From Terracidiphilus sp. (lineage in GTDB: Bacteria > Acidobacteriota > Terriglobia > Terriglobales > Acidobacteriaceae), in the NCBI GenBank assembly GCA_049517515.1, contig JBEKSA010000017.1, positions 13,090 to 77,089 of the forward strand: a stretch of DNA of 64,000 bases. Direction: 5' to 3'. The position numbers and the translations under genes are program-made. This document shows, piece by piece, positions 8,326 through 22,011 of the stretch. The notes under the pieces are model-generated. The model saw only the letters and a program-made list of their open reading frames with translations, did no database searches and was not told the DNA's origin. Position 1 is the stretch's first letter, and every line of letters begins with the position of its first letter.

Positions 8326-8340
8326 TGCAGGTCTCCTTGC

Positions 8341-8464
8341 AGTGGTCAGTGAACAGTGATCAGTGGTCAGCGGGCGACAGAGGTCAAACAGTCCAAAGTC
8401 ACGCCGAGGTGAGGCAGTGGGCCGGCTGCGACACGAACGAACTGATCACTGATCACTGACCACT
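8341..8464. repeat. Inverted pair of heptamer repeat blocks (CAGTGAT/CAGTGGT)
   Basis: agtggtcagtgaacagtgatcagtggtcag paired with ctgatcactgatcactgaccact. Confidence 0.75.
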
Positions 8465-9200: not shown

Positions 9201-9238
9201 AAAAGAGGGACGGCAGGTTTGCCGTCCCTCTCGTTTTT
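9201..9238. terminator. Bidirectional intrinsic terminator
   Basis: GAGGGACGGCA/TGCCGTCCCTC stem flanked by A- and T-runs between convergent genes. Confidence 0.85.
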
Positions 9239-9283: not shown

Positions 9284-9484
9284 TTAAATAACCTGAACGT
9301 TCTCGGCCTGCCAGCCCTTGGGGCCCTTGGTCACGTCGAACTGGACCTTCTGGCCTTCCTGCAGCGACCGGAAACCGGTCGACTTGATGGCGGTGTGATG
9401 GACGAAGACGTCCTCGCCGTTTTCACGGCTCAAAAATCCAAATCCCTTTGCGTCATTGAACCACTTGACTGTGCCTTGTTCCAT
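9284..9484 (-). CDS. cspA: Cold-shock protein
   Basis: [14 protein letters not shown] (RNP1), VFVH (RNP2), [10 protein letters not shown]. Confidence 0.97.
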
Positions 9485-11051: not shown

Positions 11052-11918
11052 TTGGCGGTTCTGGCGGTGCAGCAGATCCGGCGCATGCGGGGCGGAGCGC
11101 AGGGCCAGTTGATGCTGGGCGCAGACGGGCACGTCTACGTGGTGAAGTTCCAGAACAACCCGCAGCATACGCGGGTTCTGGCCAACGAGTTGATGGCCTC
11201 GCGGCTGGCGGCGGCGGCGGGGCTGACGGTGCCCGAGACTGATCTGGTGGAAGTTTCGAGCTGGCTGATTGAGAATACGCCGGAGCTGGAGATCGACATA
11301 GGGCGGACGCGGGCGCGCTGCCAGGCGGGACTGCAGTTCGGGTCGCGCTTCGCCGGAGGCATGATGCCGGGCCAGGTGGTTGACTACCTGACCGAAGAGC
11401 AACTGGCCGAGTTGAAGAACCCGGGCGAGTTCGCCGGCGTCCTGGCTCTGGATAAGTGGACCGGCAATGCCAACGGGCGGCAGGCGGTGTTCACGCGGCG
11501 GCAGCGGGAGAAGCGCTATAGGGCTGTTTTCATCGACTTCGGGTACTGCTTTCACGCCGGGGAGTGGCGCTTTGAAGATGCTCCGCTGCGCGGCGTGTAT
11601 TACCGCAACGATGTGTACCGGGAGATCACGGGATGGGAGTCGTTTGAGCCCTGGCTGACGAGACTTGAAACCATGGCGGCGGAGACGGTGTGGGAGGCGG
11701 CCAACGAGGTTCCCCCCGAATGGTATGGCGGCGATCAGAGTGAAATGGAAGCACTGGTCGAAAAGCTGCTCAAGCGGCGGAGCCGGATCCGGGAGCTGAT
11801 TGAGGCGTTTGGGAACTCGGATAGGAGGCCGTTTCCGAAATGGGGAGCGGGGGGGATGGAAAGTGAGAAGAGGTCTTGGAGAGCGGCCCGATGGGGAGAT
11901 ACGATGAGGGTGAATTGA
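11052..11918 (+). CDS. HipA-like (HipA_2/PI3-4-kinase-like fold) kinase
   Basis: RRMRGGAQ Gly loop, YVVKF, ANELMASRLA, LDKWTGNANGRQ and FIDFGYCF motifs. Confidence 0.85.
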   Translation: MAVLAVQQIRRMRGGAQGQLMLGADGHVYVVKFQNNPQHTRVLANELMASRLAAAAGLTVPETDLVEVSSWLIENTPELEIDIGRTRARCQAGLQFGSRFAGGMMPGQVVDYLTEEQLAELKNPGEFAGVLALDKWTGNANGRQAVFTRRQREKRYRAVFIDFGYCFHAGEWRFEDAPLRGVYYRNDVYREITGWESFEPWLTRLETMAAETVWEAANEVPPEWYGGDQSEMEALVEKLLKRRSRIRELIEAFGNSDRRPFPKWGAGGMESEKRSWRAARWGDTMRVN

Positions 11919-11927
11919 GGACAGAAC

Positions 11928-12112
11928 TTAGTTTTTAGCTGTTAACCTTTAGCTCTTTCCGTTCGCGCGAAGACGGCAGAGGCTTTAATGGTGGAGGACA
12001 ACGGCACGGAGTTTCGGACTGCATAGCCGGGGCTAAGAGCTAAAAGCTAAGGGCTAAGAGCCCGAGGCTGCCAGCTACGGGCTGCGGGCTATGAACTACG
12101 AACTGCGAACTT
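11928..12112. repeat. Inverted AGCT-core heptamer repeat blocks plus further heptamers
   Basis: ttagtttttagctgttaacctttagctcttt paired with gctaagagctaaaagctaagggctaagagc; then gctacgg/gctgcgg/gctatga/actacga/actgcga. Confidence 0.75.
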
Positions 12113-12121
12113 GAAGAAGCG

Positions 12122-12997
12122 ATGACGAGCCAAAGCCAGCGGCGTGGGTGCGAGTTTCAACTGCTTCGGTATGTGCCGGACGCAGTGCGGAACGAGTATG
12201 TGCACATCGGCGTGATCTTGCGCGAGTCCGCCACGGCGGACAACCCTGGAAGGGTTGAGGTGCGCTTCACGCGCGACTGGCGGCGGGTGAGGTGCCTCGA
12301 TCCCCACGCCGATACGGCGCTGCTCGAAGGGATGGAAGGCGAGCTGCGGCGGCAGCTCCAGGAGCGAACGGACCTGGAGGAAACAGACCTTGAGGCGGCG
12401 GGAGGGCGCCTGATGCGGATCCTCGAGGAATCGCTCTCGCTGAACGTGCAGATGACTGAGCCCAAGGCCTACCTGGCCGAAAGCGTTCCCGCGGGAATGG
12501 AAGAGCTGATGCGGATCTACGTCGAGCCCCCGCCGCGGGAGCGGAGCCCGAGGCTCAGCGGACGGGCGGCGATCCAGTCGCGCATGCGCTCGGAGTTCGA
12601 ACATGCCGGTGTGTGGGATCTTTTGAGAAAGAGAATCGCCGCCTCGGAGTACACGCGGCCGGGCGATCCGCTGCGGATCGACGTGGGCTACCGGCCCAAC
12701 GGGGTGGTGCGGATGTTCCAGGCGGTGAGCCTCGATCCGGGGCTGGAGACGGCCAAGGTGCTGGCCTTTTCGGCAGCCGCGCTCCGCGTCGGCGTAGAGC
12801 GAGTGGAGAAAGCCGAGCTTGAGTTGACGGCCGTGATCGAGCCAGCGGCGCGGGTGGGAGCGACCGAAGAGGAGCCGGAACGGCTGGAGCTCTACCGCTT
12901 CGGAGTGGAGACGATGGAAGAGCACCGGATTCGGGTGCTGACCACCTCCGACATGGGCCGCGTAGCCGAGACGGCGCGGCGCGAGCTGCACGTGTAA
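12122..12997 (+). CDS. DUF3037 domain protein (usual partner of HipA_2 kinases)
   Basis: CEFQLLRYVPDAVRNEYVHIGVIL N-terminal signature; C-terminal IDVGYRPNG restriction-endonuclease-like region. Confidence 0.85.
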   Translation: MTSQSQRRGCEFQLLRYVPDAVRNEYVHIGVILRESATADNPGRVEVRFTRDWRRVRCLDPHADTALLEGMEGELRRQLQERTDLEETDLEAAGGRLMRILEESLSLNVQMTEPKAYLAESVPAGMEELMRIYVEPPPRERSPRLSGRAAIQSRMRSEFEHAGVWDLLRKRIAASEYTRPGDPLRIDVGYRPNGVVRMFQAVSLDPGLETAKVLAFSAAALRVGVERVEKAELELTAVIEPAARVGATEEEPERLELYRFGVETMEEHRIRVLTTSDMGRVAETARRELHV

Positions 12998-13198
12998 AGA
13001 GCTGGAGCCCGAAAACTGGGGTGCGGCTCGCGATCCAGTCGAGACTCTAAGTCTATTTTTAAGAACGCGTAAGGGGATGGTCACTGGGCCCGAAAATATT
13101 TTTTCTGAAGTTTGCCGATAATTTCCGGGCTTCGCGGTAGGATCAATCCGGTTGATGGATTTCAGGGGTATCGCGGCCGTTGCCGGGAGCGATTGAGT

Positions 13199-13231
13199 CA
13201 GGATTGGCTCAGGATTTGCTCCGGACTTGCT
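13199..13231 (+). promoter_or_regulatory. Three tandem 11-bp direct repeats upstream of the portal gene
   Basis: CAGGATTGGCT CAGGATTTGCT CCGGACTTGCT seen directly; regulatory role inferred. Confidence 0.5.
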
Positions 13232-13265
13232 CCAGGCGGACGGCTGACGAAACCCTGATCCCTCG

Positions 13266-13302
13266 AAAAAGGCATGGCCATGGGCCGTGCCTTTTTGTTT
13301 TT
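13266..13302 (+). terminator. Intrinsic terminator immediately upstream of the portal RBS
   Basis: Stem GGCATGGCC/GGCCGTGCC (one G-U pair), 3-nt loop, then TTTTTGTTTTT. Confidence 0.85.
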
Positions 13303-13310
13303 GAAGGAAG

Positions 13311-14612
13311 GTGCGCGTGAAGGTAGGCGAGCAATTACGGGAGATGTGGCGGCAGGCCCGCCGCGGCAGGCAGGCCGGGAATGGTGAGCGGTCCCGGCAG
13401 GTGGACCTCGATGCGGAGGTGGGGGCGGAGGCGGAGCGGAAGACGCTTGCGCTTCCCGCGATCCTGAGCCCGGTGCAATTTCCGGGCAAGCATCTGCCCA
13501 AGCCGACGCCGATGAACCTGCGCCGGTTTGCGGAGACACCGGTGGTGCGGCGGGCGATCAACGTGATCAAGGACCGCATCGCGGCGATGGACTGGCAGAT
13601 TCGGGTGCGACGCGGCGTGCAGCCCAACGACGTGGCGTTTGCGGCGCGCAAGCTGCGGGCGCTACGGTGCGCGCTGGAGGAGCCGAATCCGTCCGACAGC
13701 TTCCGCACCTTGGTGGAGCAGGTGATCGAAGATGCGCTGACCGGCGGCTTTGGAGCCATCGAGATGGAGCCGACGGGCGACCCGGAGCGGCCGGCGATGC
13801 TGTGGCCGGTGGATGGGGCCTCGATCCGCATCAACGCCAGGTGGGACGGCGGCGAGGATACGCCGCGCTACGCGCAGGCCATGCCGGGACAACTGGAGTC
13901 GGGCGCCGTGGAGCTGCTCGACCGGCAGTTGATGTACATCCGGATGAACCCGCGCAGCTTTACTCCCTTCGGGCTGGGGCCGCTGGAAGTGGCCTTTGAG
14001 ACGGTGAACCAGTTCCTGAGCGCGCACCGCTTTGCCGGCAAGCTGGCGGCGAACTCGGTGGCGCAGTATGCACTCTGGCTGAACGAAGCCACGCCCGCGC
14101 AGCACGACCGGCTAATCCGCTGGTGGCAGGGCGAGATCGAAGGCACGGGGCGCGTGCCGCTGATCTCGACCGAGCAGAAGCCGGAGGTGCTGCGCTTCGC
14201 GCAGGGAACGGACGCGGACCTGAGGCTGGCATGGCAGGAGTTCCTGATCCGGATGGTGGCCAACGCCTTCGGGCTGCCGCCGCTGATGCTGGGTCTGGAG
14301 GCGGACGTGAACCAGTCGACGGCCTCGGAGATGGCCGACGAGGCCTTCCGCGGCGCGATCTCGCCGCTGGCCATGCTGGTGGCCGGGCACATCACGCGCG
14401 ATCTGTTCGCCAAGTGCATCGGCTGGCGGGAGTTTGAGTTTGTCTTCAACGAGCTGAGCGCGCGGGACGAGGAGACAGAGCTGCAGGTGCAAGTGCAACT
14501 GCTGCAGGCCGGCGTGCTCACGATCGACGAGGTACGGGCGATGCGGGGACTGGCTCCGCTGGGGCAGACTCCGGAGGCGTTGCTGTCGGGCGAAGCGGAA
14601 AACAGAGACTAA
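13311..14612 (+). CDS. Phage portal protein (HK97-like); start may be GTG at 13317
   Basis: TPVVRRAINVIKDRIAAMDW, DALTGGFG, LWPVDG, FGLGPLE, IRMVANAFGLPPLML and GVLTIDEVRAMRGL motifs. Confidence 0.92.
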   Translation: MRVKVGEQLREMWRQARRGRQAGNGERSRQVDLDAEVGAEAERKTLALPAILSPVQFPGKHLPKPTPMNLRRFAETPVVRRAINVIKDRIAAMDWQIRVRRGVQPNDVAFAARKLRALRCALEEPNPSDSFRTLVEQVIEDALTGGFGAIEMEPTGDPERPAMLWPVDGASIRINARWDGGEDTPRYAQAMPGQLESGAVELLDRQLMYIRMNPRSFTPFGLGPLEVAFETVNQFLSAHRFAGKLAANSVAQYALWLNEATPAQHDRLIRWWQGEIEGTGRVPLISTEQKPEVLRFAQGTDADLRLAWQEFLIRMVANAFGLPPLMLGLEADVNQSTASEMADEAFRGAISPLAMLVAGHITRDLFAKCIGWREFEFVFNELSARDEETELQVQVQLLQAGVLTIDEVRAMRGLAPLGQTPEALLSGEAENRD

Positions 14613-14682
14613 GGGACTTAGGGACATAGGGGCTAAGAAACGCAGGGAGCGGGGACCGAGTCCCTGGCGGAGCGGAGCGAGC

Positions 14683-15183
14683 ATGCGATTGGAAGCGATG
14701 GCGGTAAAGATTCCTCATGTGGACAAGCATCCCAACCGGGTGCCATTTGAGGGCGTGTTGACGGTAGTGAACGCGGCCAGCGATCGAGCGCCGGCCGGAG
14801 CGCGCGGGCACCGCGTGATGCTGACGCGCGAGGCGGCGGAGAAGGCGCTGCCTTCGCTGCTGGGCATGGCTGTGGATTACAGACCCGGATGGGACGGCCA
14901 CGATGCGCGTCGCAAGATCGGCCTGCTGACCGAGGCCGATGTGATCGGGCCGCGGCTGGTGGTGCGAGGGTACCTCTACGCGCGCGATTTTCCCGATGTG
15001 GCGCAGGCGATCACGGCGCACGCTCTCGAAACGCTGGGCATGAGCTACGAACTGGCCGATGCGCGCGTGGAGGATATGCGGGCGGAGATCTGGAAGCTGA
15101 CGCGGGTGACCTTTACCGGAGCGGCGATTCTGCTGCGGGACAAGGCAGCTTACCGGGCGACAAGCTTCAGGATGGCGAGTTAG
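14683..15183 (+). CDS. Prohead (maturation) protease-like protein
   Basis: Position after the portal; His (WDGHD) and Ser (LGMSYE) in HK97/assemblin-type spacing; C-terminal FTGAAIL...AY. Confidence 0.65.
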   Translation: MRLEAMAVKIPHVDKHPNRVPFEGVLTVVNAASDRAPAGARGHRVMLTREAAEKALPSLLGMAVDYRPGWDGHDARRKIGLLTEADVIGPRLVVRGYLYARDFPDVAQAITAHALETLGMSYELADARVEDMRAEIWKLTRVTFTGAAILLRDKAAYRATSFRMAS

Positions 15184-15190
15184 CGAAAGA

Positions 15191-15290
15191 CAGCGGAGTT
15201 AGCGGAGCCAGCGGAGTTGGCGGAGTTAGCCAAGGGGAAAAGCCAGACGGCCAACAAGTAAGTTAGCGAGTTAGTCAATCAGTGAGTAAG
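15191..15290. repeat. 9-mer x4 (YAGCGGAGT-like) and 8-mer tandem repeats
   Basis: CAGCGGAGT TAGCGGAGC CAGCGGAGT TGGCGGAGT, then aagtaagt tagcgagt tagtcaat cagtgagt. Confidence 0.75.
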
Positions 15291-15300
15291 AGAGCGAACA

Positions 15301-15331
15301 AAGAGGCTCCGGGAACGGAGCCTTTTTGTTT
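15301..15331 (+). terminator. Intrinsic terminator between the protease and scaffold genes
   Basis: GGCTCCG/CGGAGCC stem, GGAA tetraloop, then TTTTTGTTT. Confidence 0.85.
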
Positions 15332-15381
15332 CTCAGTGAACCGCCGCAGTGAGCAATTCGCAAAAACAGGAAAGGAAAAAC

Positions 15382-15780
15382 ATGGAACAAGGAGAAGAGA
15401 ACATCGTGGAGCGGCTGGAAGCCGCAACCACCGCGCTGGAAAAGACGCTCAGTTGGCTGGAACAACGGCAGGGTGAGCTTTCCGGCGAGGTGGAGAGGAT
15501 CTCGGCGACTGTGGAACAAAGCCGCCGCGAAACCGAACTGGCGGAGAAGCTTGCCGCCGTGGAGCGCGAGTTGGCCGAGGTGAAAGCGGCGTCGACGCAG
15601 AACGCACTGAACCCGCTGCGCCGCACCATGCCCGCAGCAACGGCCGAGATGCTGGCCAAGCATGGCATCGGCGATGGGCCGGTGGATGTGCGCTCGCTGG
15701 ATGCGGCGTTGTCCGGACTGAGCCTGGAGCAGCGCATTGCAGTCAAAACGCAACTGCTGCGGGCCGGCGCAATCTCGTAA
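15382..15780 (+). CDS. Capsid scaffold-like coiled-coil protein
   Basis: GGAAAGGA RBS; Glu-rich heptad helix; position between protease and capsid. Confidence 0.6.
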   Translation: MEQGEENIVERLEAATTALEKTLSWLEQRQGELSGEVERISATVEQSRRETELAEKLAAVERELAEVKAASTQNALNPLRRTMPAATAEMLAKHGIGDGPVDVRSLDAALSGLSLEQRIAVKTQLLRAGAIS

Positions 15781-15784
15781 AGGC

Positions 15785-15965
15785 AGCTTCTAGCTTTTAG
15801 CTATTAGCTCTTAGCTACGAGCTTGTTGAGCGCACAGGGTAGCCGACAGACGAAACGCGATGGAAGTGAAAGATCGCGGACCGCGCGCCGGCGAATGATC
15901 AATCATCAACGCCAGATCAGGCACGAACAAGCTGGCAGCTAGGAGCTAGAAGCTAGCAGCTAAGC
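15785..15965. repeat. Inverted AGCTNNN heptamer blocks enclosing about 100 nt
   Basis: Six AGCT units at 15785-15827 are in register with the reverse complement of five AGCT units at 15926-15965. Confidence 0.85.
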
Positions 15966-15995
15966 ACGGCCCCATGGAGGGGGTGGAGAGAATCT

Positions 15996-16964
15996 ATGAA
16001 CGCAACCTTTGCAGATATTCATGCGGCAGCGGACTACATCGGGCCGGGCGCTATCGAAGTTCCGCTGTACCAGACGGAGATCTTCGACATTTGCCGGCGG
16101 TCAAGTTCATTTGGACAGCGCATCAGGCAGGTTCCGGCGACCGGGCATCCGTCGCGTTTCTTTGAGGAGACGGCGATTCCCAATCCGGGGACAGCGGGCT
16201 TCGTGAATCCGCGCAGCATCAATCCCACGGTGGTGAGCCCGACGCGCATTGAGCTGAGCGTGCCGCTGAAAGCGGTTGTGGCACAGATCAACTACAACCT
16301 CTTCGACATCGAGCTGGGCGACCAGCAGAAGCAGTTCGCCTATCTGCAGGCCAAGGATCTTGTGGATACGGTGAGCGGCGTGATGGTGGCGCACGACGTG
16401 GCGCTGTGGAACGGCAACGACACCAGCCTGAGCGCGCCTACGACCACGCAGTACATGGGCTGCGCGGCGCAGATCGCGGCCGGAGGCAACTCGGTGACCG
16501 TGACCACCTCGATGAAGATTGTGGACACGATCAAGACCACGGTGGCGCAGATGGTGGCCAACAACGGCTACCATGTGCGTCCCACGGCGGTCTATGCCAA
16601 CCCGGTGCTGCTGGACCTGATCGACCAGGAGATGAAATCCGAGTACAACGTGGTGCTGAACACCGACCAGATCACCGGCGGCTTCCGCGTGAAGATGCTT
16701 TCGACGCAGGCCGGCGACCTGCCGTTGATTCCGGATTGGAGCCTGAGTTACACGGGCACGCCGGGAAGCGGCAATGCCGTGCTTCCGGCCTACATCGTGA
16801 CTGAGGATCTGATCGAGTATCACTGGCTGGGCGATCCCACTCCGCGCGTCTTCCAGCTCGGCTTGCCGAACTCGCTGACCCACCAGTATGTGGCAGTCAA
16901 GTTCGGCGCTCCGGTGGTGAAGGGCGCAAACTTCGCCCACTATCAGGTGCTGGTCGACCGGTAG
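15996..16964 (+). CDS. Major capsid protein (HK97-fold-like)
   Basis: 322 aa after the scaffold; ends in a typical MCP-like pattern (V.FG..VV.G..F.H..V); followed by neck genes. Confidence 0.72.
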   Translation: MNATFADIHAAADYIGPGAIEVPLYQTEIFDICRRSSSFGQRIRQVPATGHPSRFFEETAIPNPGTAGFVNPRSINPTVVSPTRIELSVPLKAVVAQINYNLFDIELGDQQKQFAYLQAKDLVDTVSGVMVAHDVALWNGNDTSLSAPTTTQYMGCAAQIAAGGNSVTVTTSMKIVDTIKTTVAQMVANNGYHVRPTAVYANPVLLDLIDQEMKSEYNVVLNTDQITGGFRVKMLSTQAGDLPLIPDWSLSYTGTPGSGNAVLPAYIVTEDLIEYHWLGDPTPRVFQLGLPNSLTHQYVAVKFGAPVVKGANFAHYQVLVDR

Positions 16965-16967
16965 GGA

Positions 16968-17100
16968 AAACAGTTCATGGTTAGCAGTTCATGGTTTGCA
17001 GCTCACGGCCGCCGGAAAGAACACCGGCAGCCGTGAGGCGCGGGCTGAGGACTGCGAACCAGGAACTCTGACTCAAGAATTCTGAACCAGGAACTGGAAA
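16968..17100. repeat. Degenerate inverted tandem repeats (CAGTTCATGGTT / GAACCAGGAACT)
   Basis: Seen directly in the capsid-adaptor spacer. Confidence 0.6.
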
Positions 17101-17114
17101 CGGAAGGATGCGCG

Positions 17115-17738
17115 ATGGCATATCTCGAGCCAGCGGATTACACGAACTATGGATTGCCGGCCGGGACCACGGCAGACTGGATCACGGCCGCGACGGCCCT
17201 GATCAACAGTTACTGCAGGCGGCCCGATCTGAATGTGATTCAGTATACGGAGCGCCTGCGCGTAACGGCTGGGGCGCAGACGGTGCGGCTGAGCTATCTG
17301 CCGCTGGCGCCGCTGGCGCCGGCGACGACGCCGATGGTGAGCCTCGAAGGACGGTACGCGAGGCCAAGACGCGGGGAGATTCCGCAGGAGCCGCTCATCG
17401 AGATCGCATGGGCGTTTGCGTTGCCCGGGCAATGGACGTCGATCGATGCCACGCTTGTGGACTTCGATCCCAACACCGGGGAGCTGACGCTGCCGTGGAA
17501 TGTTCTGGGGCTGCCGTTCAACGAAGTGCAAGCGACTTACACGGCGGGCCTAGCGACCATCGGCGACGACGTGAAGTCAGCGTGTGCGCAGATTGTGCGC
17601 AATGCGCAGGCAACGCCAGCGCTGAACGCGAGCATGAGCAGGATCGACACGATGCAAATCAAGTATTTCTCAAGTTCGCTGATCGACGAGACGGTGCAGG
17701 CGTGGCTGAATCCGTACGTTGCGAACAGGCTGGGGTGA
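17115..17738 (+). CDS. Head-tail adaptor (gp6/gp15-like)
   Basis: AATALINSYCRR N-helix, beta insertion, then VQATYTAGLATIGDDVKSACAQIV. Confidence 0.75.
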   Translation: MAYLEPADYTNYGLPAGTTADWITAATALINSYCRRPDLNVIQYTERLRVTAGAQTVRLSYLPLAPLAPATTPMVSLEGRYARPRRGEIPQEPLIEIAWAFALPGQWTSIDATLVDFDPNTGELTLPWNVLGLPFNEVQATYTAGLATIGDDVKSACAQIVRNAQATPALNASMSRIDTMQIKYFSSSLIDETVQAWLNPYVANRLG

Positions 17739-17741
17739 GCG

Positions 17742-18176
17742 ATGAGCGATACGGCGCCGCGTAACCCGCGGGGCGCGCCGCAGATGCTGGCCGACGCGCT
17801 GCTGCGCAGCGCATCGGGTACGACGGCCCTTCTGCGCGTGACAGGCACGAATACGGATACGAGCATGTCGGAGGTCGGCCTGGTAGCGACCACCTTCGCC
17901 GATGTTCCGGTAAGCCCGGTGCTGATGCGCAAGCTGCGGCCGCAATGGCAGGAAGGTGGCGAATCGAAGTGGGAGCTGCTGGTGTCGGCCACGAGTGTGG
18001 AGCAGCAGATCAACACGCTCGATTTGCCGTCGGCACAGTCTCTGTTCGCCATGACTTTGGCGGTTACCGTGGCCGGGCAAGACTATCTGATTGAGTCGAT
18101 CGCTTCCAATGAGGCGTTTGGCCAGGTGTATCTCTACCGGCTGCTTTTGCGCGAGGCGCGGCAGCAGGCGGTGTAA
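17742..18176 (+). CDS. Head closure/stopper-like protein
   Basis: Size (144 aa), beta-rich pattern and position after the adaptor; no diagnostic motif. Confidence 0.5.
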   Translation: MSDTAPRNPRGAPQMLADALLRSASGTTALLRVTGTNTDTSMSEVGLVATTFADVPVSPVLMRKLRPQWQEGGESKWELLVSATSVEQQINTLDLPSAQSLFAMTLAVTVAGQDYLIESIASNEAFGQVYLYRLLLREARQQAV

Positions 18177-18193
18177 CCGCGCGAGGGGCATCC

Positions 18194-18679
18194 ATGCAGA
18201 ATGCGAAAGATTCTTTTTATATGGCGTTGCGCACGCGGCTTACCGAGATCAATCCGCAGCGGACGATCCTGGTGCGGGGTACCGTAAGGCCGGGAATCCT
18301 GGTGGAGGAAGCAGAGGCTCCGTTCAGCCAGTTCCCTAGCGACGTGTTTGTGTTGCGCTGGCTGGGCCTGGCTGTTGACATGGACCTGGCATCAACGATG
18401 ACAGGGGAGCAATGCGAAATCGTCTACCAGACGTGCGGCACACAGAGCTTCGGCGGGCTGGATCGCGGCCGAGCTTTGAGCACGATGGACGAGGAATTAA
18501 TGGCGATGATTCAGCCTTTCTACACACCGAAGCTGAATTACGCCGCCACGCCGCCAGCCGCCATGCTGACGCAGGTTTTCTGGGATGAGCCGGTGTTCTC
18601 GCCCATCGTTACCCAGCGCGACCGGCTGAGCCGCAGCGCGACAGTGTTGGTTTACAGCTACCAGGAGCAGGGGGAGTAA
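18194..18679 (+). CDS. Tail terminator/completion-like protein
   Basis: N-terminal helix (KDSFYMALRTRL), 161 aa, immediately before the tube gene; called on synteny. Confidence 0.5.
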   Translation: MQNAKDSFYMALRTRLTEINPQRTILVRGTVRPGILVEEAEAPFSQFPSDVFVLRWLGLAVDMDLASTMTGEQCEIVYQTCGTQSFGGLDRGRALSTMDEELMAMIQPFYTPKLNYAATPPAAMLTQVFWDEPVFSPIVTQRDRLSRSATVLVYSYQEQGE

Positions 18680-19654
18680 ATGGCCGCAACTTGGTTTTCC
18701 GCTCCGGCGCCGGTGTCGCGACGGGTGCGGGCTTTCTTTGCGCCGGTGAATCGCGCGGCGCAGACGCCCGTTCTTTTCGATCCGTCGGAACAGGGCTGGT
18801 TTAGTCTTGATGCCCCACCGGCACCGTGGATCAGCCTAGGATGGGTGCAGGATTTTGTGCGCAAGACGGCGAGTAAGTCAGCGGCGCTGATGACCGGAAT
18901 TCCCGCAGCGCCCCTCGAACAGGTGCGCGAGACCCTCGAAGCGCAAGTAAGTCTTCAATTTCTAAGTTGGACGAAGCTGACGATGGGTCTGGCTACCGGC
19001 TCGCAACATATGAACATCCTTGCGCCGGCGATTGGCGCGGCTCCTGCAGCTGATGGAGCACAAGCATCGCCCGCAGTGACACCGCAGAGCGGTTCGACGA
19101 GCACGTCGATTCTGCTGGCGCTTACGGACGCGGCCAAATTCACACCCGGCGCGATCGTCGCTGTCGACGCGGATTACAACGGGCAGACCGGCTATGTGGG
19201 CACTCCGGTAGCCGGCGCGTACGTGCGCCAGGTGCTCACGGATGTGGACTACGTGCGGCGCGTAACGTTCAATGTCGCGCTTGTATCGCAAGTGACCGCG
19301 ACCGGGCTGAATCTGGCCGAGCCGTTGCCGGGCGGCGCCCCTGCAACGGGCGCCAAGGTGCAGGCAGTGACCGGATTTGTCGATCGAGAAGGCGGAAGCT
19401 TTTACCAGGAGTGGTCAGGGCTCTTTGTGATGGAAGGCAGCCAGGGAGAGAGAATCTTTTTCCACTATCCAAGACTGCAAGCTATGACCGGAGCGGAGGA
19501 GGCTGTTTCGCCGCTCAATCAAAAGAATCAAGGTGGACATTCGCGTGTACTACTCAAGGGGCAGTTTCTGGCATTGCCGGTGATGGACCCATTGGATGGA
19601 GAACGCGTGGTATGTTACCGGAGCTTTCTACCGGCGGCCAACGCGCTGGTATAA
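18680..19654 (+). CDS. Major tail tube-like protein with inserted domain
   Basis: WISLGWV...EAQVSLQFL..LTMGLATG and RIFFHYPRL...F.ALP.DP patterns of non-contractile tube proteins; called on synteny. Confidence 0.55.
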   Translation: MAATWFSAPAPVSRRVRAFFAPVNRAAQTPVLFDPSEQGWFSLDAPPAPWISLGWVQDFVRKTASKSAALMTGIPAAPLEQVRETLEAQVSLQFLSWTKLTMGLATGSQHMNILAPAIGAAPAADGAQASPAVTPQSGSTSTSILLALTDAAKFTPGAIVAVDADYNGQTGYVGTPVAGAYVRQVLTDVDYVRRVTFNVALVSQVTATGLNLAEPLPGGAPATGAKVQAVTGFVDREGGSFYQEWSGLFVMEGSQGERIFFHYPRLQAMTGAEEAVSPLNQKNQGGHSRVLLKGQFLALPVMDPLDGERVVCYRSFLPAANALV

Positions 19655-19694
19655 CACGCACTAGAGAATCCGAGTTACCAGACAGAGAGTTGCG

Positions 19695-22011
19695 ATGAAG
19701 ATACAAATCCAGAGGCAGGATTACACGGCTGCGTTCGACTCCGGTCGTCCATTAACCATCGAGCGCAAGCTGAATGCACCGTCGGTCTGCGAGTTATGGT
19801 TGAGCCTACCGGCCAATGGCAGTCTTGCGGCGCCGGCGCGCTTTCAATCTGTTTCGGTGACCGGGGATGACGGGACAACTTACTTCACGGGCTATATCAC
19901 TGCAAGTCCCTTGCCAGAGTATGCGGGAATTGGCCTTGAAGGGCCGCGCTACCGGCTAGCAATTCAGGCTGTGAGCGATGAGATTCTGCTGGACCAGGTG
20001 CTGATGCCGCCCAGCGCCGGATTGGCCGAAGAGGATGCGGGGACGTTGCTTGCTGCCCTTGTGGCTCACACTGGATCGACATCCCTTTCGGCGCGGACGT
20101 CTTCACTGAACACTCTTGTGGGGAACTTTACTCCGGAGCCGGGAGCAAATTGGAGCAAAAGCGCCGGAGAGGCCGCTGGCATGGCCCGGGCGGCATATCG
20201 CGCACAGAGCGGCGCAATCACGCTGTCCGCGGTACAGACAACCGTTCATCCCCTGAATGAGACCGATGGGAGCCTGAACCTGGGTAACCTGGCTCTGACA
20301 GCAAGCGTTAAGCGCGCGCTGGCCAACGATGTGACCGTTTGCGGCGAGAATGAGCCGGCAGCCTATGTTACGGAGTACTTCCTCGGCGACGGAGCAACAA
20401 CGCAGTTCAATCTGGCAGCCGACCCATACTTTCCCGCGACTTCAAAATCCACAATTATCAGCGAGCTCTTTAACGAGCCACAAATCAACGAGACGGTGTG
20501 GGAATTTTCCGAGGGAACGGGCTACCTTACGATCGGCCCCGGCGGCCTGGCGATGAACGGCGGCAACGGGATCGACGGGCAGACGTTGCTGACATGGATC
20601 GATCCCATCGAAATGGGTGGAACTCTGCTGTTTGAGGCGGTGGGAGTGAAACTGTCTCCGGGCAGCACGGGCATCGTGGCGGGATTCTTTACCAGTCTGC
20701 TGACAGCGGCGAATTGCACCGCAGGTTTTCAGGCCACGGCGCAACAAGGCACCGGAGCCGTGACGCTGCAGCCAGTCGTGGAGGGCACTCCCGCGGGAAT
20801 CACGTTTGCGTTGAATCCAGCCAACCAATACACTGTCCGTGTCCGCATACACTGTCCGGAGTGTAATCGCGCGCAAGCAATGTATTATTCCTTTGGAGAT
20901 CAGGGGCTCATCGGCGCCGGCGGTGAATGGGCCATCGCTTCTGGAAAGATCCAGATGGAGATACAAGAATTTGTCAACGGCGTCGGCGCAACTCCTGTCA
21001 CACTGTATGACGCGGCTGTTGCCTATCTTCCTGGCTCCTGCCTGGTGGTGCCGGCCAGCAGCATCAATTTAATCGGAACGATTCGCGCCGTAAGCCTGAC
21101 GAACTTAGGGTCAGGTTGGGTAGTAAGTACCCCGCCGGCTGGCGGAGCGTACACGCGAAGGGTAGGCACAACCGCCGAAGCCGCGGAGTGTCATCTGGAG
21201 CGCACCGGCAAGGTCACGTTCTACACCGGATGCACGCCGGTTGCAGGTGAACAGATTGCAGTGAGTTACCGCACGGTTGGGCGGGCCGTAGGCCGCGCGG
21301 TAAACTCCACCAGCCAGCAGGCGCTGGCACAAGCCGGCTCACCGACTGTGGCCGCCTGGATCGGCTCGGTCACTCGTCCCCCCGGCACGCTGCTCCGCGG
21401 ATTGCCGCAATGCCGCGCTGGTGATGGAGCAGGCTGCAGCCAGCGTGAGCGCGCTTTGGAGTGGAACGTACAAAGGGAACCGGACGAGCTTTTCAGCGGA
21501 TGTTTGGCCAGGCGACGCGCTGCTGCTTGACGCGCCTTCGACAAATCTAAATGCGGAAGTCGTAGTGCGCACAGTTAAAGTAACTTACAGCGCCAGTTAC
21601 CCGGACTTAGTGGCTTATGAGATCGCCTTTGCCAATGACTGGGCAGATGACTTAGCCATCAAGACAAGCGCCGCGGTGCCAGCGGACACTTGGTTGCCGG
21701 CTCCCATTGCCCCTACAGTACTGGCCAATCTTGCCTGTCTCACGGTGGCCGCGATGAACGGGAGCACGGTGACGGTGAATACGGGAGTGACACCGCCAAG
21801 CGGCGGCGGGTTCGAGATTCGGTTGCGCGATTTTGCTTTCATGCCCGGCGAGGATCCGACGCTGGTGATCCGCGGCTCGCAGCCGAATCTTACGTTTTCG
21901 CGCATTTCGGCGAGCGATCGGTTCTACATTCGGATGTTCGATGGTTCGACGCCACCAAATTACTCGGAATTTTCGACGGCGCTGTTCATCAATCTGCCGT
22001 TGAGTTCTTGA
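19695..22011 (+). CDS. Tail hub/tip-like protein, split by a +1 frameshift at the C6 run 21378-21383 (about 771 aa if restored)
   Basis: Hub-like N-terminus (TIERKLNAPS, YFTGYI, RLAIQAVS); frame 19695 runs into GC-biased nonsense after VTRP, while the +1 frame continues PARCSADCRNAALVMEQ into DVWPGDALLLD. Confidence 0.65.

What the first reader, a model, noticed from the sequence alone, without database searches (positions are those of the whole stretch)
13266..13317. Strong intrinsic terminator 8-14 nt before the portal start: cassette appears locked off without antitermination
Seen: a 9-bp GC stem plus TTTTTGTTTTT ending at 13302, then the RBS (AAGGAAGG) and GTG at 13311/13317. No promoter fits between terminator and gene, so portal mRNA must read through the hairpin. 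Known: the Caulobacter GTA cluster depends on the activator/antiterminator GafYZ to bypass internal terminators, and lambdoid late operons use Q. Inference: an unlinked antiterminator or attenuation switch limits particle production to rare cells.
Basis: partly seen in the sequence, partly recalled or inferred. Interest (0 to 1): 0.75.

Follow-up and report, generated by a model that had tools for sequence, protein, structure and literature searches.

The report
Conserved terminator gating a phage-head cluster
A strong transcription stop signal sits directly in front of the portal gene of an ancient, chromosomally fixed phage-head gene cluster in peat-soil Acidobacteria. It is kept, with compensating mutations, in every relative examined, so RNA polymerase must read through it to make these genes.

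Summary
Window 13266-13302 (+) is a canonical intrinsic terminator, T1: a 9-bp G+C core extended by A-U pairs, -22.6 kcal/mol, followed by TTTTTGTTTTT. It abuts the Shine-Dalgarno sequence of a portal gene whose true start is GTG 13317, not 13311.

The organism is a Terracidiphilus-type Acidobacteriaceae from peat, not an alphaproteobacterium. T1 is present upstream of the orthologous portal in 80/80 species genomes, 5/5 IMG/VR contigs and 74/75 further metagenome contigs. Of 14 stem pairs, 8 show compensatory changes, and the many G-U pairs work only in + strand RNA.

A conserved promoter-like block (13111-13143) lies upstream of T1, and nothing promoter-like lies downstream. T1 persists where the upstream gene is divergent, so it belongs to the portal's own transcription unit. 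A second conserved terminator, T2 (15303-15334), follows the next gene. No alternative antiterminator pairing, riboswitch, leader peptide or ops element is supported, and no antiterminator gene was found.

Metatranscriptome contigs show the cluster is transcribed in nature. "Locked off" and "unlinked antiterminator" therefore remain inference.

The cluster is not RcGTA-like: portal plus an HK97-fold capsid protein, always linked to a HipA-like kinase/DUF3037 defence pair.

Verdict: a real, selected leader terminator. Its gating mechanism is unproven.

The parts
13266..13302 (+). T1: intrinsic terminator. Stem 13266-13279 / 13283-13296, loop ATG, U-tract to 13302.
   Evidence: Conserved in 80/80 genome loci, 5/5 IMG/VR loci and 74/75 metagenome loci. 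95.3% of cells are paired, 8/14 pairs show compensatory change, 0/500 shuffles reach this, and slid controls give 34-57%. RNAalifold predicts the same helix.
13303..13319 (+). Shine-Dalgarno GAAGGAAGGTG and the true start codon GTG 13317-13319
   Evidence: AAGGAAGGTGCGCGTGAAG is nearly invariant. Indels in six loci exclude GTG 13311 as the start.
13317..14612 (+). Portal protein gene (431 aa)
   Evidence: Pfam Phage_portal 4e-53 and PHROG portal families. About 519 relatives in species-representative genomes, the best 80 at 83-95% aa identity. No close phage relative.
13111..13143 (+). Conserved promoter-like block: TTTGCCGATAAT-N11-GCGGTAGGAT, with a -10-like TAGGAT at 13138-13143
   Evidence: Invariant columns in alignment A1. 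A fixed 23-nt register in about 70/80 loci. Unique in the window. Unique to this locus in JGI metagenomes: 76/80 matches are followed by the portal, 3 are on truncated contigs and 1 is a chance hit. Promoter function is inferred, not shown.
13150..13265 (+). Inferred 5' leader, variable between species. In the window it holds 11-nt repeats at 13198-13233 and folds into a long hairpin abutting T1.
   Evidence: There is no conserved antiterminator pairing with the 5' arm of T1 and no Rfam family match.
15303..15334 (+). T2: second intrinsic terminator (GAGGCTCCGGGAACGGAGCCTT + TTTGTTTCT), between the 166-aa gene and the 132-aa gene
   Evidence: A + strand terminator is present at this junction in 61/79 loci, against 0-3 at every other junction except T1.
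11052..12997 (+). HipA-like kinase (11052-11918) and DUF3037 protein (12122-12997), immediately upstream. This is a PDC-M66 / DS-6 'HipAD' type pair.
   Evidence: Pfam HipA_2 and DUF3037. PADLOC PDC-M66A/B. Syntenic with the portal in 62-68 of 80 loci and in distant relatives. The published defence/toxin-antitoxin function of the family is in PMC12548924 and PMC13092281.
14683..22011 (+). Rest of the conserved cluster: 166-aa gene 14683-15183; 132-aa coiled-coil gene 15382-15780; HK97-fold capsid gene 15996-16964; genes at 17115-17738, 17742-18176, 18194-18679 and 18680-19654; and a last gene at 19695-22011 that is frameshifted in the window.
   Evidence: Synteny and 82-92% aa identity across species. 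The AlphaFold model of the 322-aa protein (pLDDT 80) matches HK97-type capsids and encapsulins at E 3e-11. The frameshift is shown.

Best explanation
T1 is a functional Rho-independent terminator that lies inside the portal's own transcription unit.

Transcription starts at the conserved promoter-like block (-10-like TAGGAT at 13138-13143, inferred start near 13150). In more distant relatives it starts instead at the upstream HipA-like/DUF3037 operon. It then runs through a non-conserved leader of about 115 nt and meets T1 directly before the portal ribosome-binding site. By default most polymerases stop there, so the portal and the 166-aa gene behind it are made only from polymerases that read through. 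T2 closes or gates the next step.

A promoter followed at once by a strong terminator is maintained in every lineage, and the leader offers no alternative RNA fold. I therefore think read-through is conditional and driven by a trans-acting factor that modifies RNA polymerase or blocks the hairpin (processive antitermination of the lambda Q / AlpA / GafZ kind).

Shown: the hairpin, its conservation and covariation, its strand, its position relative to the conserved block and the start codon, and the absence of a competing fold.

Inferred: that the block is the promoter, that T1 terminates efficiently in vivo, and that a factor relieves it.

My estimates:
- T1 is a selected terminator within the portal transcription unit: about 0.85.
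- Read-through is factor-regulated: about 0.45.
- Read-through is a constant passive leak: about 0.3.
For: - Canonical terminator anatomy and stability.
- Such sites are rare in this window and absent from shuffles.
- T1 is present in 80/80, 5/5 and 74/75 independent loci.
- 8/14 pairs carry compensatory changes, 95.3% of cells are paired against 34-57% in slid controls, and 0/500 shuffles reach this. RNAalifold recovers the helix.
- G-U pairs are frequent at three stem positions, so only the + strand RNA pairs.
- A conserved block lies upstream in a fixed register. Its invariant T, A, A, T fit a -10 hexamer.
- In L031, L036, L038, L048, L062 and L070 the upstream gene is divergent, yet block, leader and T1 persist with compensatory stem changes. 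T1 is therefore not merely the terminator of an upstream gene.
- In distant relatives (portal 67-73% identical) the 114-157 nt DUF3037-portal spacer holds T1 and no block. The portal there can only be reached through T1.
- + strand terminators are confined to two junctions of the cluster: 73/73 and 61/79, against 0-3 elsewhere.
- The leader pairs with the 5' arm of T1 less than shuffled leaders do (-2.8 vs -4.7 kcal/mol), so an RNA switch is unlikely.
Against: - No termination or read-through measurement exists. Only assembled metatranscriptome contigs were available.
- Contig ends at 13296/13300 are probably assembly breaks at the palindrome.
- Contigs spanning T1 into the portal exist, and portal RNA reaches depth 25-40 in one sample. 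Read-through, or DNA carry-over, therefore occurs in nature.
- No antiterminator-like gene was found in the cluster or the window.
- The -35 region of the block is non-canonical and the sigma-70 scan did not call it.
- The block occurs at no other locus, so no regulon supports a dedicated factor.
- Distant relatives keep T1 without the block, so a promoter-loaded factor cannot be universal.
- RNA of the 132-aa gene and the capsid gene is far more abundant than portal RNA in two samples. Simple serial attenuation does not explain this.
Confidence: 0.5

Rival explanations
1. T1 is a constitutive, leaky attenuator. It always stops a fixed majority of polymerases and merely sets a low, constant portal level relative to the upstream genes. 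No dedicated factor is involved.
For: - No antiterminator gene was found.
- In distant relatives T1 sits as an ordinary intercistronic terminator after DUF3037.
- Portal RNA and T1-spanning contigs are seen in bulk metatranscriptomes.
- There is no alternative fold.
Against: A weak promoter would achieve the same result. Yet a conserved promoter-like block followed by a strong terminator is maintained in all Terracidiphilus-clade loci, including those that have lost the upstream operon. A second terminator is also conserved.
Confidence: 0.3
2. T1 is simply the terminator and insulator of the upstream HipA-like/DUF3037 operon. The portal has an independent promoter.
For: - T1 follows DUF3037 by 40-110 nt in L083-L085.
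- An A-run precedes the stem in the window.
- The DUF3037 and leader regions are covered by RNA contigs.
Against: - T1 persists with compensatory changes where the upstream gene is divergent.
- The conserved block lies upstream, not downstream, of T1.
- Only 20 nt separate the stem from the start codon in the window.
- No promoter-like conserved element lies downstream of T1 in any locus lacking an insertion.
Confidence: 0.08
3. The block, leader and T1 encode a small non-coding RNA of about 150 nt with its own function. Portal expression by read-through is incidental.
For: - The arrangement is promoter-like block, then a structured leader (z = -4.6 with T1), then a terminator.
- RNA fragments cover 13100-13220.
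Against: - Apart from T1, the leader is not conserved in sequence or length (42-226 nt).
- Distant relatives lack the block altogether.
- There is no Rfam match.
- T1 keeps its position next to the portal ribosome-binding site.
Confidence: 0.07
4. The palindrome acts as DNA, as an operator or a packaging/cos-like site, rather than as an RNA hairpin.
For: It is a near-perfect inverted repeat at the head of a phage packaging/head module.
Against: Many relatives keep pairing only through G-U wobble. These are A-C mismatches on the other strand and make the DNA an imperfect palindrome. An invariant T-run follows the stem. A second hairpin of unrelated sequence but the same form (T2) lies downstream. 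L004-type inserts add yet another hairpin plus T-run.
Confidence: 0.03

Closest known systems
Lambdoid late-operon control: PR' promoter, short terminated leader RNA (6S), terminator tR', Q antiterminator (also Q21 and Q82)
   Same: A promoter is followed within about 150 nt by a strong intrinsic terminator, directly ahead of phage morphogenesis genes. More than one terminator lies in the unit. Conserved sequence surrounds the promoter, including two -10-like hexamers (GATAAT 13117-13122 and TAGGAT 13138-13143). This resembles a promoter plus a promoter-proximal pause element.
   Different: No Q-like gene lies next to the promoter or anywhere in the window. Neither a Q-binding element nor pausing was tested. 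The element is chromosomally fixed across hundreds of species, with no lysis or replication modules. Distant relatives lack the promoter block.
Caulobacter crescentus GTA control by GafY/GafZ/IHF (PMC11150451)
   Same: A domesticated phage-like cluster whose full transcription needs bypass of a terminator. There is a long untranslated leader, and a single-target promoter carries a conserved element around -35/-10.
   Different: CcGTA terGTA lies downstream of the first gene and consists of three 150-bp GC-rich repeats, not a canonical hairpin plus U-tract in the leader. No gafYZ-like genes were found here. The host phylum and the structural genes are unrelated.
Pseudomonas aeruginosa AlpA (and related P2-Ogr/AlpA-type) antitermination of lysis/pyocin-type clusters
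   Same: A chromosomal phage-derived cluster is kept silent by leader terminators. A promoter-loaded factor relieves them.
   Different: No AlpA-family gene was detected, and no DNA-damage regulator lies nearby.
RfaH/ops and LoaP-type NusG paralogue antitermination
   Same: A leader-encoded recruitment signal allows read-through of terminators in long accessory operons. The block contains GCGGTAG, which resembles ops GGCGGTAG.
   Different: The GCGG part varies freely among relatives (GTTG, GGAG, GCGA, GCGC), while TAGGAT is invariant. The motif therefore behaves as a -10 hexamer, not as ops. No NusG paralogue lies in the window.
HipA-like kinase + DUF3037 defence pair (PDC-M66 / DS-6 'HipAD'; PMC12548924, PMC13092281)
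   Same: The two genes immediately upstream match this pair by Pfam and PADLOC.
   Different: The published systems are stand-alone defence/toxin-antitoxin pairs. Here the pair is syntenic with a portal/capsid cluster down to 67% portal identity, an association I did not find described.

Membership tests
Rho-independent (intrinsic) terminator | G+C-rich stem of about 5-14 bp with a short loop | tested here: met
   A 9-bp G+C core plus 4-5 A-U pairs with a 3-nt loop; -22.6 kcal/mol, z = -4.65.
Rho-independent (intrinsic) terminator | U-rich tract immediately 3' of the stem | tested here: met
   TTTTTGTTTTT at 13292-13302. The T columns are invariant or nearly so in 66 distinct sequences.
Rho-independent (intrinsic) terminator | Pairing maintained in evolution on the transcribed strand | tested here: met
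   95.3% of cells paired, 8/14 pairs compensatory, 0/500 shuffles, G-U pairs specific to the + strand.
Rho-independent (intrinsic) terminator | RNA 3' ends generated at the U-tract in vivo or in vitro | tested here: inconclusive
   Only assembled metatranscriptome contigs were available. Contig ends at 13296/13300 coincide with the palindrome and may be assembly breaks, and other contigs span T1.
RNA-switch attenuator (riboswitch, T-box, leader-peptide or protein-bound antiterminator helix) | Conserved alternative helix that sequesters the 5' arm of the terminator | tested here: not met
   Adding the 5' arm of T1 to the leader gains -2.8 kcal/mol on average, against -4.7 for shuffled leaders, in 64 loci.
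RNA-switch attenuator (riboswitch, T-box, leader-peptide or protein-bound antiterminator helix) | Conserved aptamer or leader sequence, or a leader ORF | tested here: not met
   No Rfam match at gathering score, or below it above noise. The leader cannot be aligned outside close relatives. The 13-codon ORF at 13155 is confined to the window's nearest relatives (read from the alignment).
Processive antitermination system (Q / AlpA / GafZ / RfaH / LoaP types) | Terminator(s) between the promoter and the controlled genes, with no internal promoter | tested here: met
   T1 lies in the leader and T2 after the second gene. No conserved promoter-like element lies after T1 or between T2 and the 132-aa gene.
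Processive antitermination system (Q / AlpA / GafZ / RfaH / LoaP types) | A dedicated antiterminator protein encoded nearby or identifiable | tested here: not met
   Pfam, NCBIfam, PHROG and PADLOC scans of the cluster and the rest of the window give no Q, AlpA, NusG-paralogue or similar hit. Several cluster proteins remain without any annotation, and an unlinked gene cannot be excluded.
Processive antitermination system (Q / AlpA / GafZ / RfaH / LoaP types) | Recruitment element (QBE plus pause site, ops, nut, leader hairpin) with the family's conservation pattern | tested here: inconclusive
   The ops-like string fails on its pattern of variation. The two -10-like hexamers 21 nt apart and the conserved initial transcribed GATTTTGTTGAG are suggestive only.
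RcGTA-type gene transfer agent | Head-tail cluster homologous to RcGTA, including the large terminase, portal, protease, capsid and tail genes | tested here: not met
   Only the portal matches a sequence family. The capsid protein is recognised by fold alone. No terminase or tail family was detected. The host is Acidobacteriaceae.
RcGTA-type gene transfer agent | Particles that package random host DNA and cannot propagate | not testable with these tools
   This needs cultures, particle purification and sequencing of protected DNA.
Domesticated (vertically inherited) phage-derived element | Conserved synteny and sequence across many species, with no mobility or replication genes | tested here: met
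   About 519 relatives in species-representative genomes. The gene order is kept at 67-95% portal identity. The flanks are housekeeping genes with no integrase. There is no close phage relative.

The most novel reading that the evidence does not exclude
The window holds an undescribed, vertically inherited capsid-forming element of Acidobacteriaceae: a portal, an HK97-fold capsid protein and about seven unknown proteins. It is physically and transcriptionally coupled to a HipA-like kinase/DUF3037 toxin-antitoxin defence pair.

T1 and T2 are the switch. In the resting state the upstream pair is transcribed and T1 stops polymerase. On phage attack or stress, either loss of DUF3037 control boosts transcription or a still-unknown antiterminator is loaded at the conserved block. 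Polymerase then reads through, and portal-containing particles are made in a subset of cells.

This would be a GTA-like or defence-linked particle system in a dominant soil phylum, with a new kind of control.
Probability: 0.15. Interest if true: 0.8.

Novelty: new member of a known kind. Interest (0 to 1): 0.5.

Why it matters
Acidobacteriaceae are among the most abundant bacteria in acidic soils and peat, and nothing like a gene transfer agent or other domesticated capsid system has been characterised in them.

T1, the promoter-like block and T2 are short, sharply defined and universally conserved control elements. They turn the question of whether this phage-head cluster is regulated, and by what, into simple experiments: reporter fusions, Term-seq, and pull-downs with a 200-nt fragment.

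If read-through proves conditional, the element would add a phylum-level example of antitermination-gated domesticated phage genes. It could also reveal a new antiterminator, or a link between a kinase toxin-antitoxin defence pair and capsid production.

If read-through is constant, T1 is an ordinary attenuator. The interest then lies in the cluster, not in the hairpin.

Tried and rejected
- **Rfam:** no family at gathering score in the window and only noise near T1. No tRNA or tmRNA.
- **ops/RfaH:** the GCGGTAG string in the block looked like ops. I rejected it because GCGG varies while TAGGAT is invariant.
- **Alternative sigma readings of the block:** by inspection, a sigma-54 reading fails because there is no conserved GG 12 nt upstream of the GC. 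A sigma-28 reading (GCCGATAA) is not convincing: the C is A in most relatives and the TAAA spacing is off.
- **Antiterminator helix:** none found.
- **Leader peptide:** not conserved.
- **Inverted repeat arrays flanking the promoter block:** strongly complementary only in a subclade (z = -4 to -7 in about 10 loci). In the window z = -1.55, so this is not a general part of the mechanism.
- **Regulon search with the block pattern in JGI metagenomes:** it found only this locus.
- **RNA 3' ends:** contig ends at T1 cannot be trusted because assemblers break at palindromes. No raw-read RNA runs were offered.
- **Structure of the last, 769-aa protein:** pLDDT 36, unusable.
- **Sequence searches for the 166-, 322- and 611-aa proteins:** searches against PDB, Pfam, NCBIfam and PHROGs gave nothing significant.
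- **Promoter between T2 and the 132-aa gene:** no conserved -10-like element.
- **First version of the duplex script:** it timed out.
Full report
**1. The observation**

Window 13266-13296 reads AAAAAGGCATGGCC-ATG-GGCCGTGCCTTTTT. The T-run continues to 13302 (TTTTTGTTTTT). GAAGGAAGG follows at 13303-13311, and GTG codons lie at 13311 and 13317.

- As RNA the hairpin folds at -22.6 kcal/mol, with z = -4.65. None of 200 dinucleotide shuffles folds as well.
- The consensus scan lists it as the longest + strand terminator-like site in 8-20 kb. It finds no promoter-like site near it.
- My stricter scan found only three + strand sites at or below -12 kcal/mol in 64 kb: 9204, 13268 and 15303. Six dinucleotide shuffles of both strands gave 0-1 sites each, none at or below -15.

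The feature is real and not a chance hairpin.

One correction concerns the start codon. In six relatives, 1-2 nt indels separate the two GTGs, so only the second (13317) can be the start.

**2. Where it sits**

The ORF at 13317-14612 is a portal protein (Pfam Phage_portal 4e-53; PHROG portal families).

A search of one genome per species found about 519 relatives. The best 80 are all Terracidiphilus or Acidobacteriaceae MAGs from peat and soil, at 83-95% amino-acid identity. The window is therefore acidobacterial, not alphaproteobacterial.

Upstream lie a HipA-like kinase gene (11052-11918) and a DUF3037 gene (12122-12997). They match the PADLOC candidate pair PDC-M66. Recent papers report this pair as a kinase-toxin/antitoxin-like anti-phage system (PMC12548924, PMC13092281).

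Downstream are eight co-directional genes ending at 22011. None matches Pfam, PHROGs or NCBIfam.

The 322-aa product (15996-16964) was modelled with an alignment of relatives 31-92% identical to it, reaching pLDDT 80. The model matches HK97-type major capsid proteins and encapsulins at Foldseek E 3e-11.

The order kinase - DUF3037 - portal - 166 aa - 132 aa - capsid - 207 - 144 - 161 aa is kept across species at 82-92% identity. It is also kept in IMG/VR contigs whose portals are only 67-73% identical.

No close phage relative of the portal exists in GenBank phages. The rest of the window is housekeeping: purE, purK, bipA, a porin, ftsB, pgm, malic enzyme and others. I found no integrase, no terminase, and no Q-, AlpA- or NusG-like gene.

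This is a chromosomally fixed, phage-derived head-gene cluster. It is not demonstrably a GTA.

**3. Conservation of the hairpin (T1)**

A hairpin plus T-run lies upstream of the portal start in all 80 genome loci.

- In 66 loci it lies within 19-61 nt of the start codon.
- The apparent exceptions carry T1 further upstream, because 100-300 nt have been inserted between T1 and the ribosome-binding site. One recurrent insert is IR-flanked and brings a second terminator.
- T1 is also present in 5/5 IMG/VR loci.
- It is present in 74/75 independent metagenome contigs recovered through the promoter-block pattern, as 54 distinct variants.

On a MAFFT alignment of 66 distinct sequences:

| Measure | Result |
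|---|---|
| Cells forming standard pairs | 95.3% |
| Same measure, partners slid by 1-3 columns | 34-57% |
| Pairs with compensatory double changes | 8 of 14 |
| Shuffles reaching the observed values | 0 of 500 |

RNAalifold recovers the same helix on its own. Three stem positions are often G-U, which is an A-C mismatch on the other strand. The selected object is therefore + strand RNA, not a DNA palindrome. The T-run columns are invariant or nearly so.

**4. Which transcripts meet T1**

The DUF3037-portal spacers share an invariant block, TTTGCnGATAAT-N11-GCGGTAGGAT, at window 13111-13143. Around it the sequence is otherwise unalignable.

The invariant T, A, A, T of TAGGAT fit a -10 hexamer. 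The -35 region is non-canonical, so an activator or an alternative sigma factor may be needed. This is inference. A start near 13150 would give a leader of about 115 nt in the window and 42-226 nt elsewhere.

Three findings show that T1 belongs to the portal's transcription unit:

- In L031, L036, L038, L048, L062 and L070 the upstream gene is divergent and the kinase/DUF3037 pair is absent. Block, leader and T1 are still kept, with compensatory stem changes such as GGTACGGCC/GGCTGTACC.
- In the distant relatives L083-L085 there is no block. T1 lies 40-110 nt after the DUF3037 stop and directly before the portal, which can then only be transcribed through T1 from the upstream operon.
- Nothing promoter-like is conserved downstream of T1.

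The block pattern occurs at no other locus in JGI metagenomes. Of 80 matches, 76 are followed by the portal, 3 are on truncated contigs, and 1 is a chance hit inside an unrelated gene.

**5. A second terminator and the architecture**

GAGGCTCCGGGAACGGAGCCTT followed by TTTGTTTCT at 15303-15334 (T2) lies between the 166-aa gene and the 132-aa gene.

| Junction | Loci with a + strand terminator |
|---|---|
| DUF3037 to portal | 73/73 |
| 166-aa to 132-aa gene | 61/79 |
| Each of the eight other junctions | 0-3 |

Portal and the 166-aa gene are thus bracketed by two conserved terminators. No conserved -10-like element lies between T2 and the 132-aa start.

**6. How read-through might be controlled**

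The leader gives no sign of an RNA switch:

- It is not conserved in sequence.
- It matches no Rfam family.
- It pairs with the 5' arm of T1 less well than shuffled leaders do (-2.8 vs -4.7 kcal/mol, 64 loci).
- The short ORF in the window's leader is not conserved.

The ops-like GCGGTAG fails on its pattern of variation.

A promoter followed by a strong terminator, maintained everywhere, is the layout of factor-dependent (processive) antitermination. Examples are lambda PR'-tR'/Q, AlpA and GafZ (PMC11150451). No candidate factor was found, however, and distant relatives lack the block. A constant leak remains a serious alternative.

**7. Expression data**

Only assembled contigs of peat and permafrost metatranscriptomes were available.

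- They show the cluster is transcribed in nature.
- In two samples the 132-aa and capsid genes are at depth 12-130, against 0-7 for portal and the 166-aa gene. In a third sample the portal is at 25-40.
- Some contigs span T1 into the portal.
- Contig ends at 13296/13300 coincide with the palindrome and are probably assembly breaks.
- Low depth in the T1 bin reflects sequence divergence of the spacer between species.

These data show the cassette is not silent at community level. They can neither measure termination nor address rare-cell expression.

**8. Verdict**

Its structural inference, that the portal must be transcribed through the hairpin, is well supported and extended by deep conservation, covariation and a second terminator.

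The mechanistic reading is plausible but unproven. That reading comprises an unlinked antiterminator, a cassette locked off, rare producer cells, and the analogy to GTA.

T1 is a new member of a known kind: a leader terminator gating phage-derived morphogenesis genes. The more novel object is the cluster itself and its fixed linkage to a HipA-like/DUF3037 pair.

Noticed in passing
window 11052-22011 (and L001-L165): The whole block is conserved in synteny in about 500 species-level Acidobacteriaceae genomes and down to 67% portal identity. It comprises the HipA-like kinase, DUF3037, portal, 166-aa, 132-aa coiled-coil and HK97-fold capsid genes plus five unknown genes. It has no integrase or terminase. 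I found no description of it in the searched literature.
   Followed up: partly
window 15303-15334: A second conserved + strand intrinsic terminator (T2) lies about 60 nt upstream of the 132-aa gene start (ATG 15382). It is present in 61/79 loci. Between T2 and the start there is a small GCG...CGC hairpin but no promoter-like conserved element.
   Followed up: partly
window 8340-8464, 11925-12061, 13198-13233, 14607-14631, 15177-15230, 15785-15962, 16971-17005: Intergenic regions are filled with tandem 7-11-nt repeats, often as two arrays in inverted orientation that would form long imperfect hairpins. The repeat unit differs between species (CAGTGATC, AGCTAGN, CAGGGATC, CGTGAATC) while the inverted symmetry is kept. 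RNA contigs of relatives lack 15787-15961 entirely. They look like REP- or MITE-like variable cassettes and may stabilise mRNA segments.
   Followed up: partly
L004, L005, L015, L017, L018, L021, L023, L027 (between T1 and the portal SD): An insert of about 125 nt flanked by inverted repeats (CGAGCGGTTCCACAATT ... AATTGTGGAACCGCTG). It carries its own hairpin plus T-run (GCCGCC..GGCGGC-TTTTTCTT), giving two terminators in tandem ahead of the portal.
   Followed up: no
window 21378-21416 (gene 19695-22011): The last cluster gene is 769-773 aa in relatives. In the window it is split by a frameshift into 19695-21530 and 21421-22011. RNA contigs of relatives lack one base at 21378. This is either a real pseudogene or an assembly error.
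   Followed up: partly
window 15966-15995: A conserved GGCCCC-ATGGA-GGGGG hairpin lies immediately before the ribosome-binding site of the capsid gene. It is almost invariant across species while the rest of that spacer is replaced wholesale.
   Followed up: no
window 15372-17276: In two permafrost metatranscriptomes, RNA of the 132-aa gene and the capsid gene is 10-100 times more abundant than portal RNA. One contig joins the two genes. This suggests a separate promoter or a stabilised processed segment.
   Followed up: partly
L033, L040, L044, L051, L053, L060, L064, L072, L073, L075: In this subclade the repeats just after the DUF3037 stop are the reverse complement of the repeats in the portal leader (duplex z = -4 to -7). 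A read-through transcript could therefore enclose the promoter block in a long stem. This is not significant in the window itself (z = -1.55).
   Followed up: partly
window 9204-9231 and 9284-9484 (-): A strong bidirectional terminator lies next to a cold-shock-domain protein gene that is 98% conserved in relatives. This is ordinary context.
   Followed up: no
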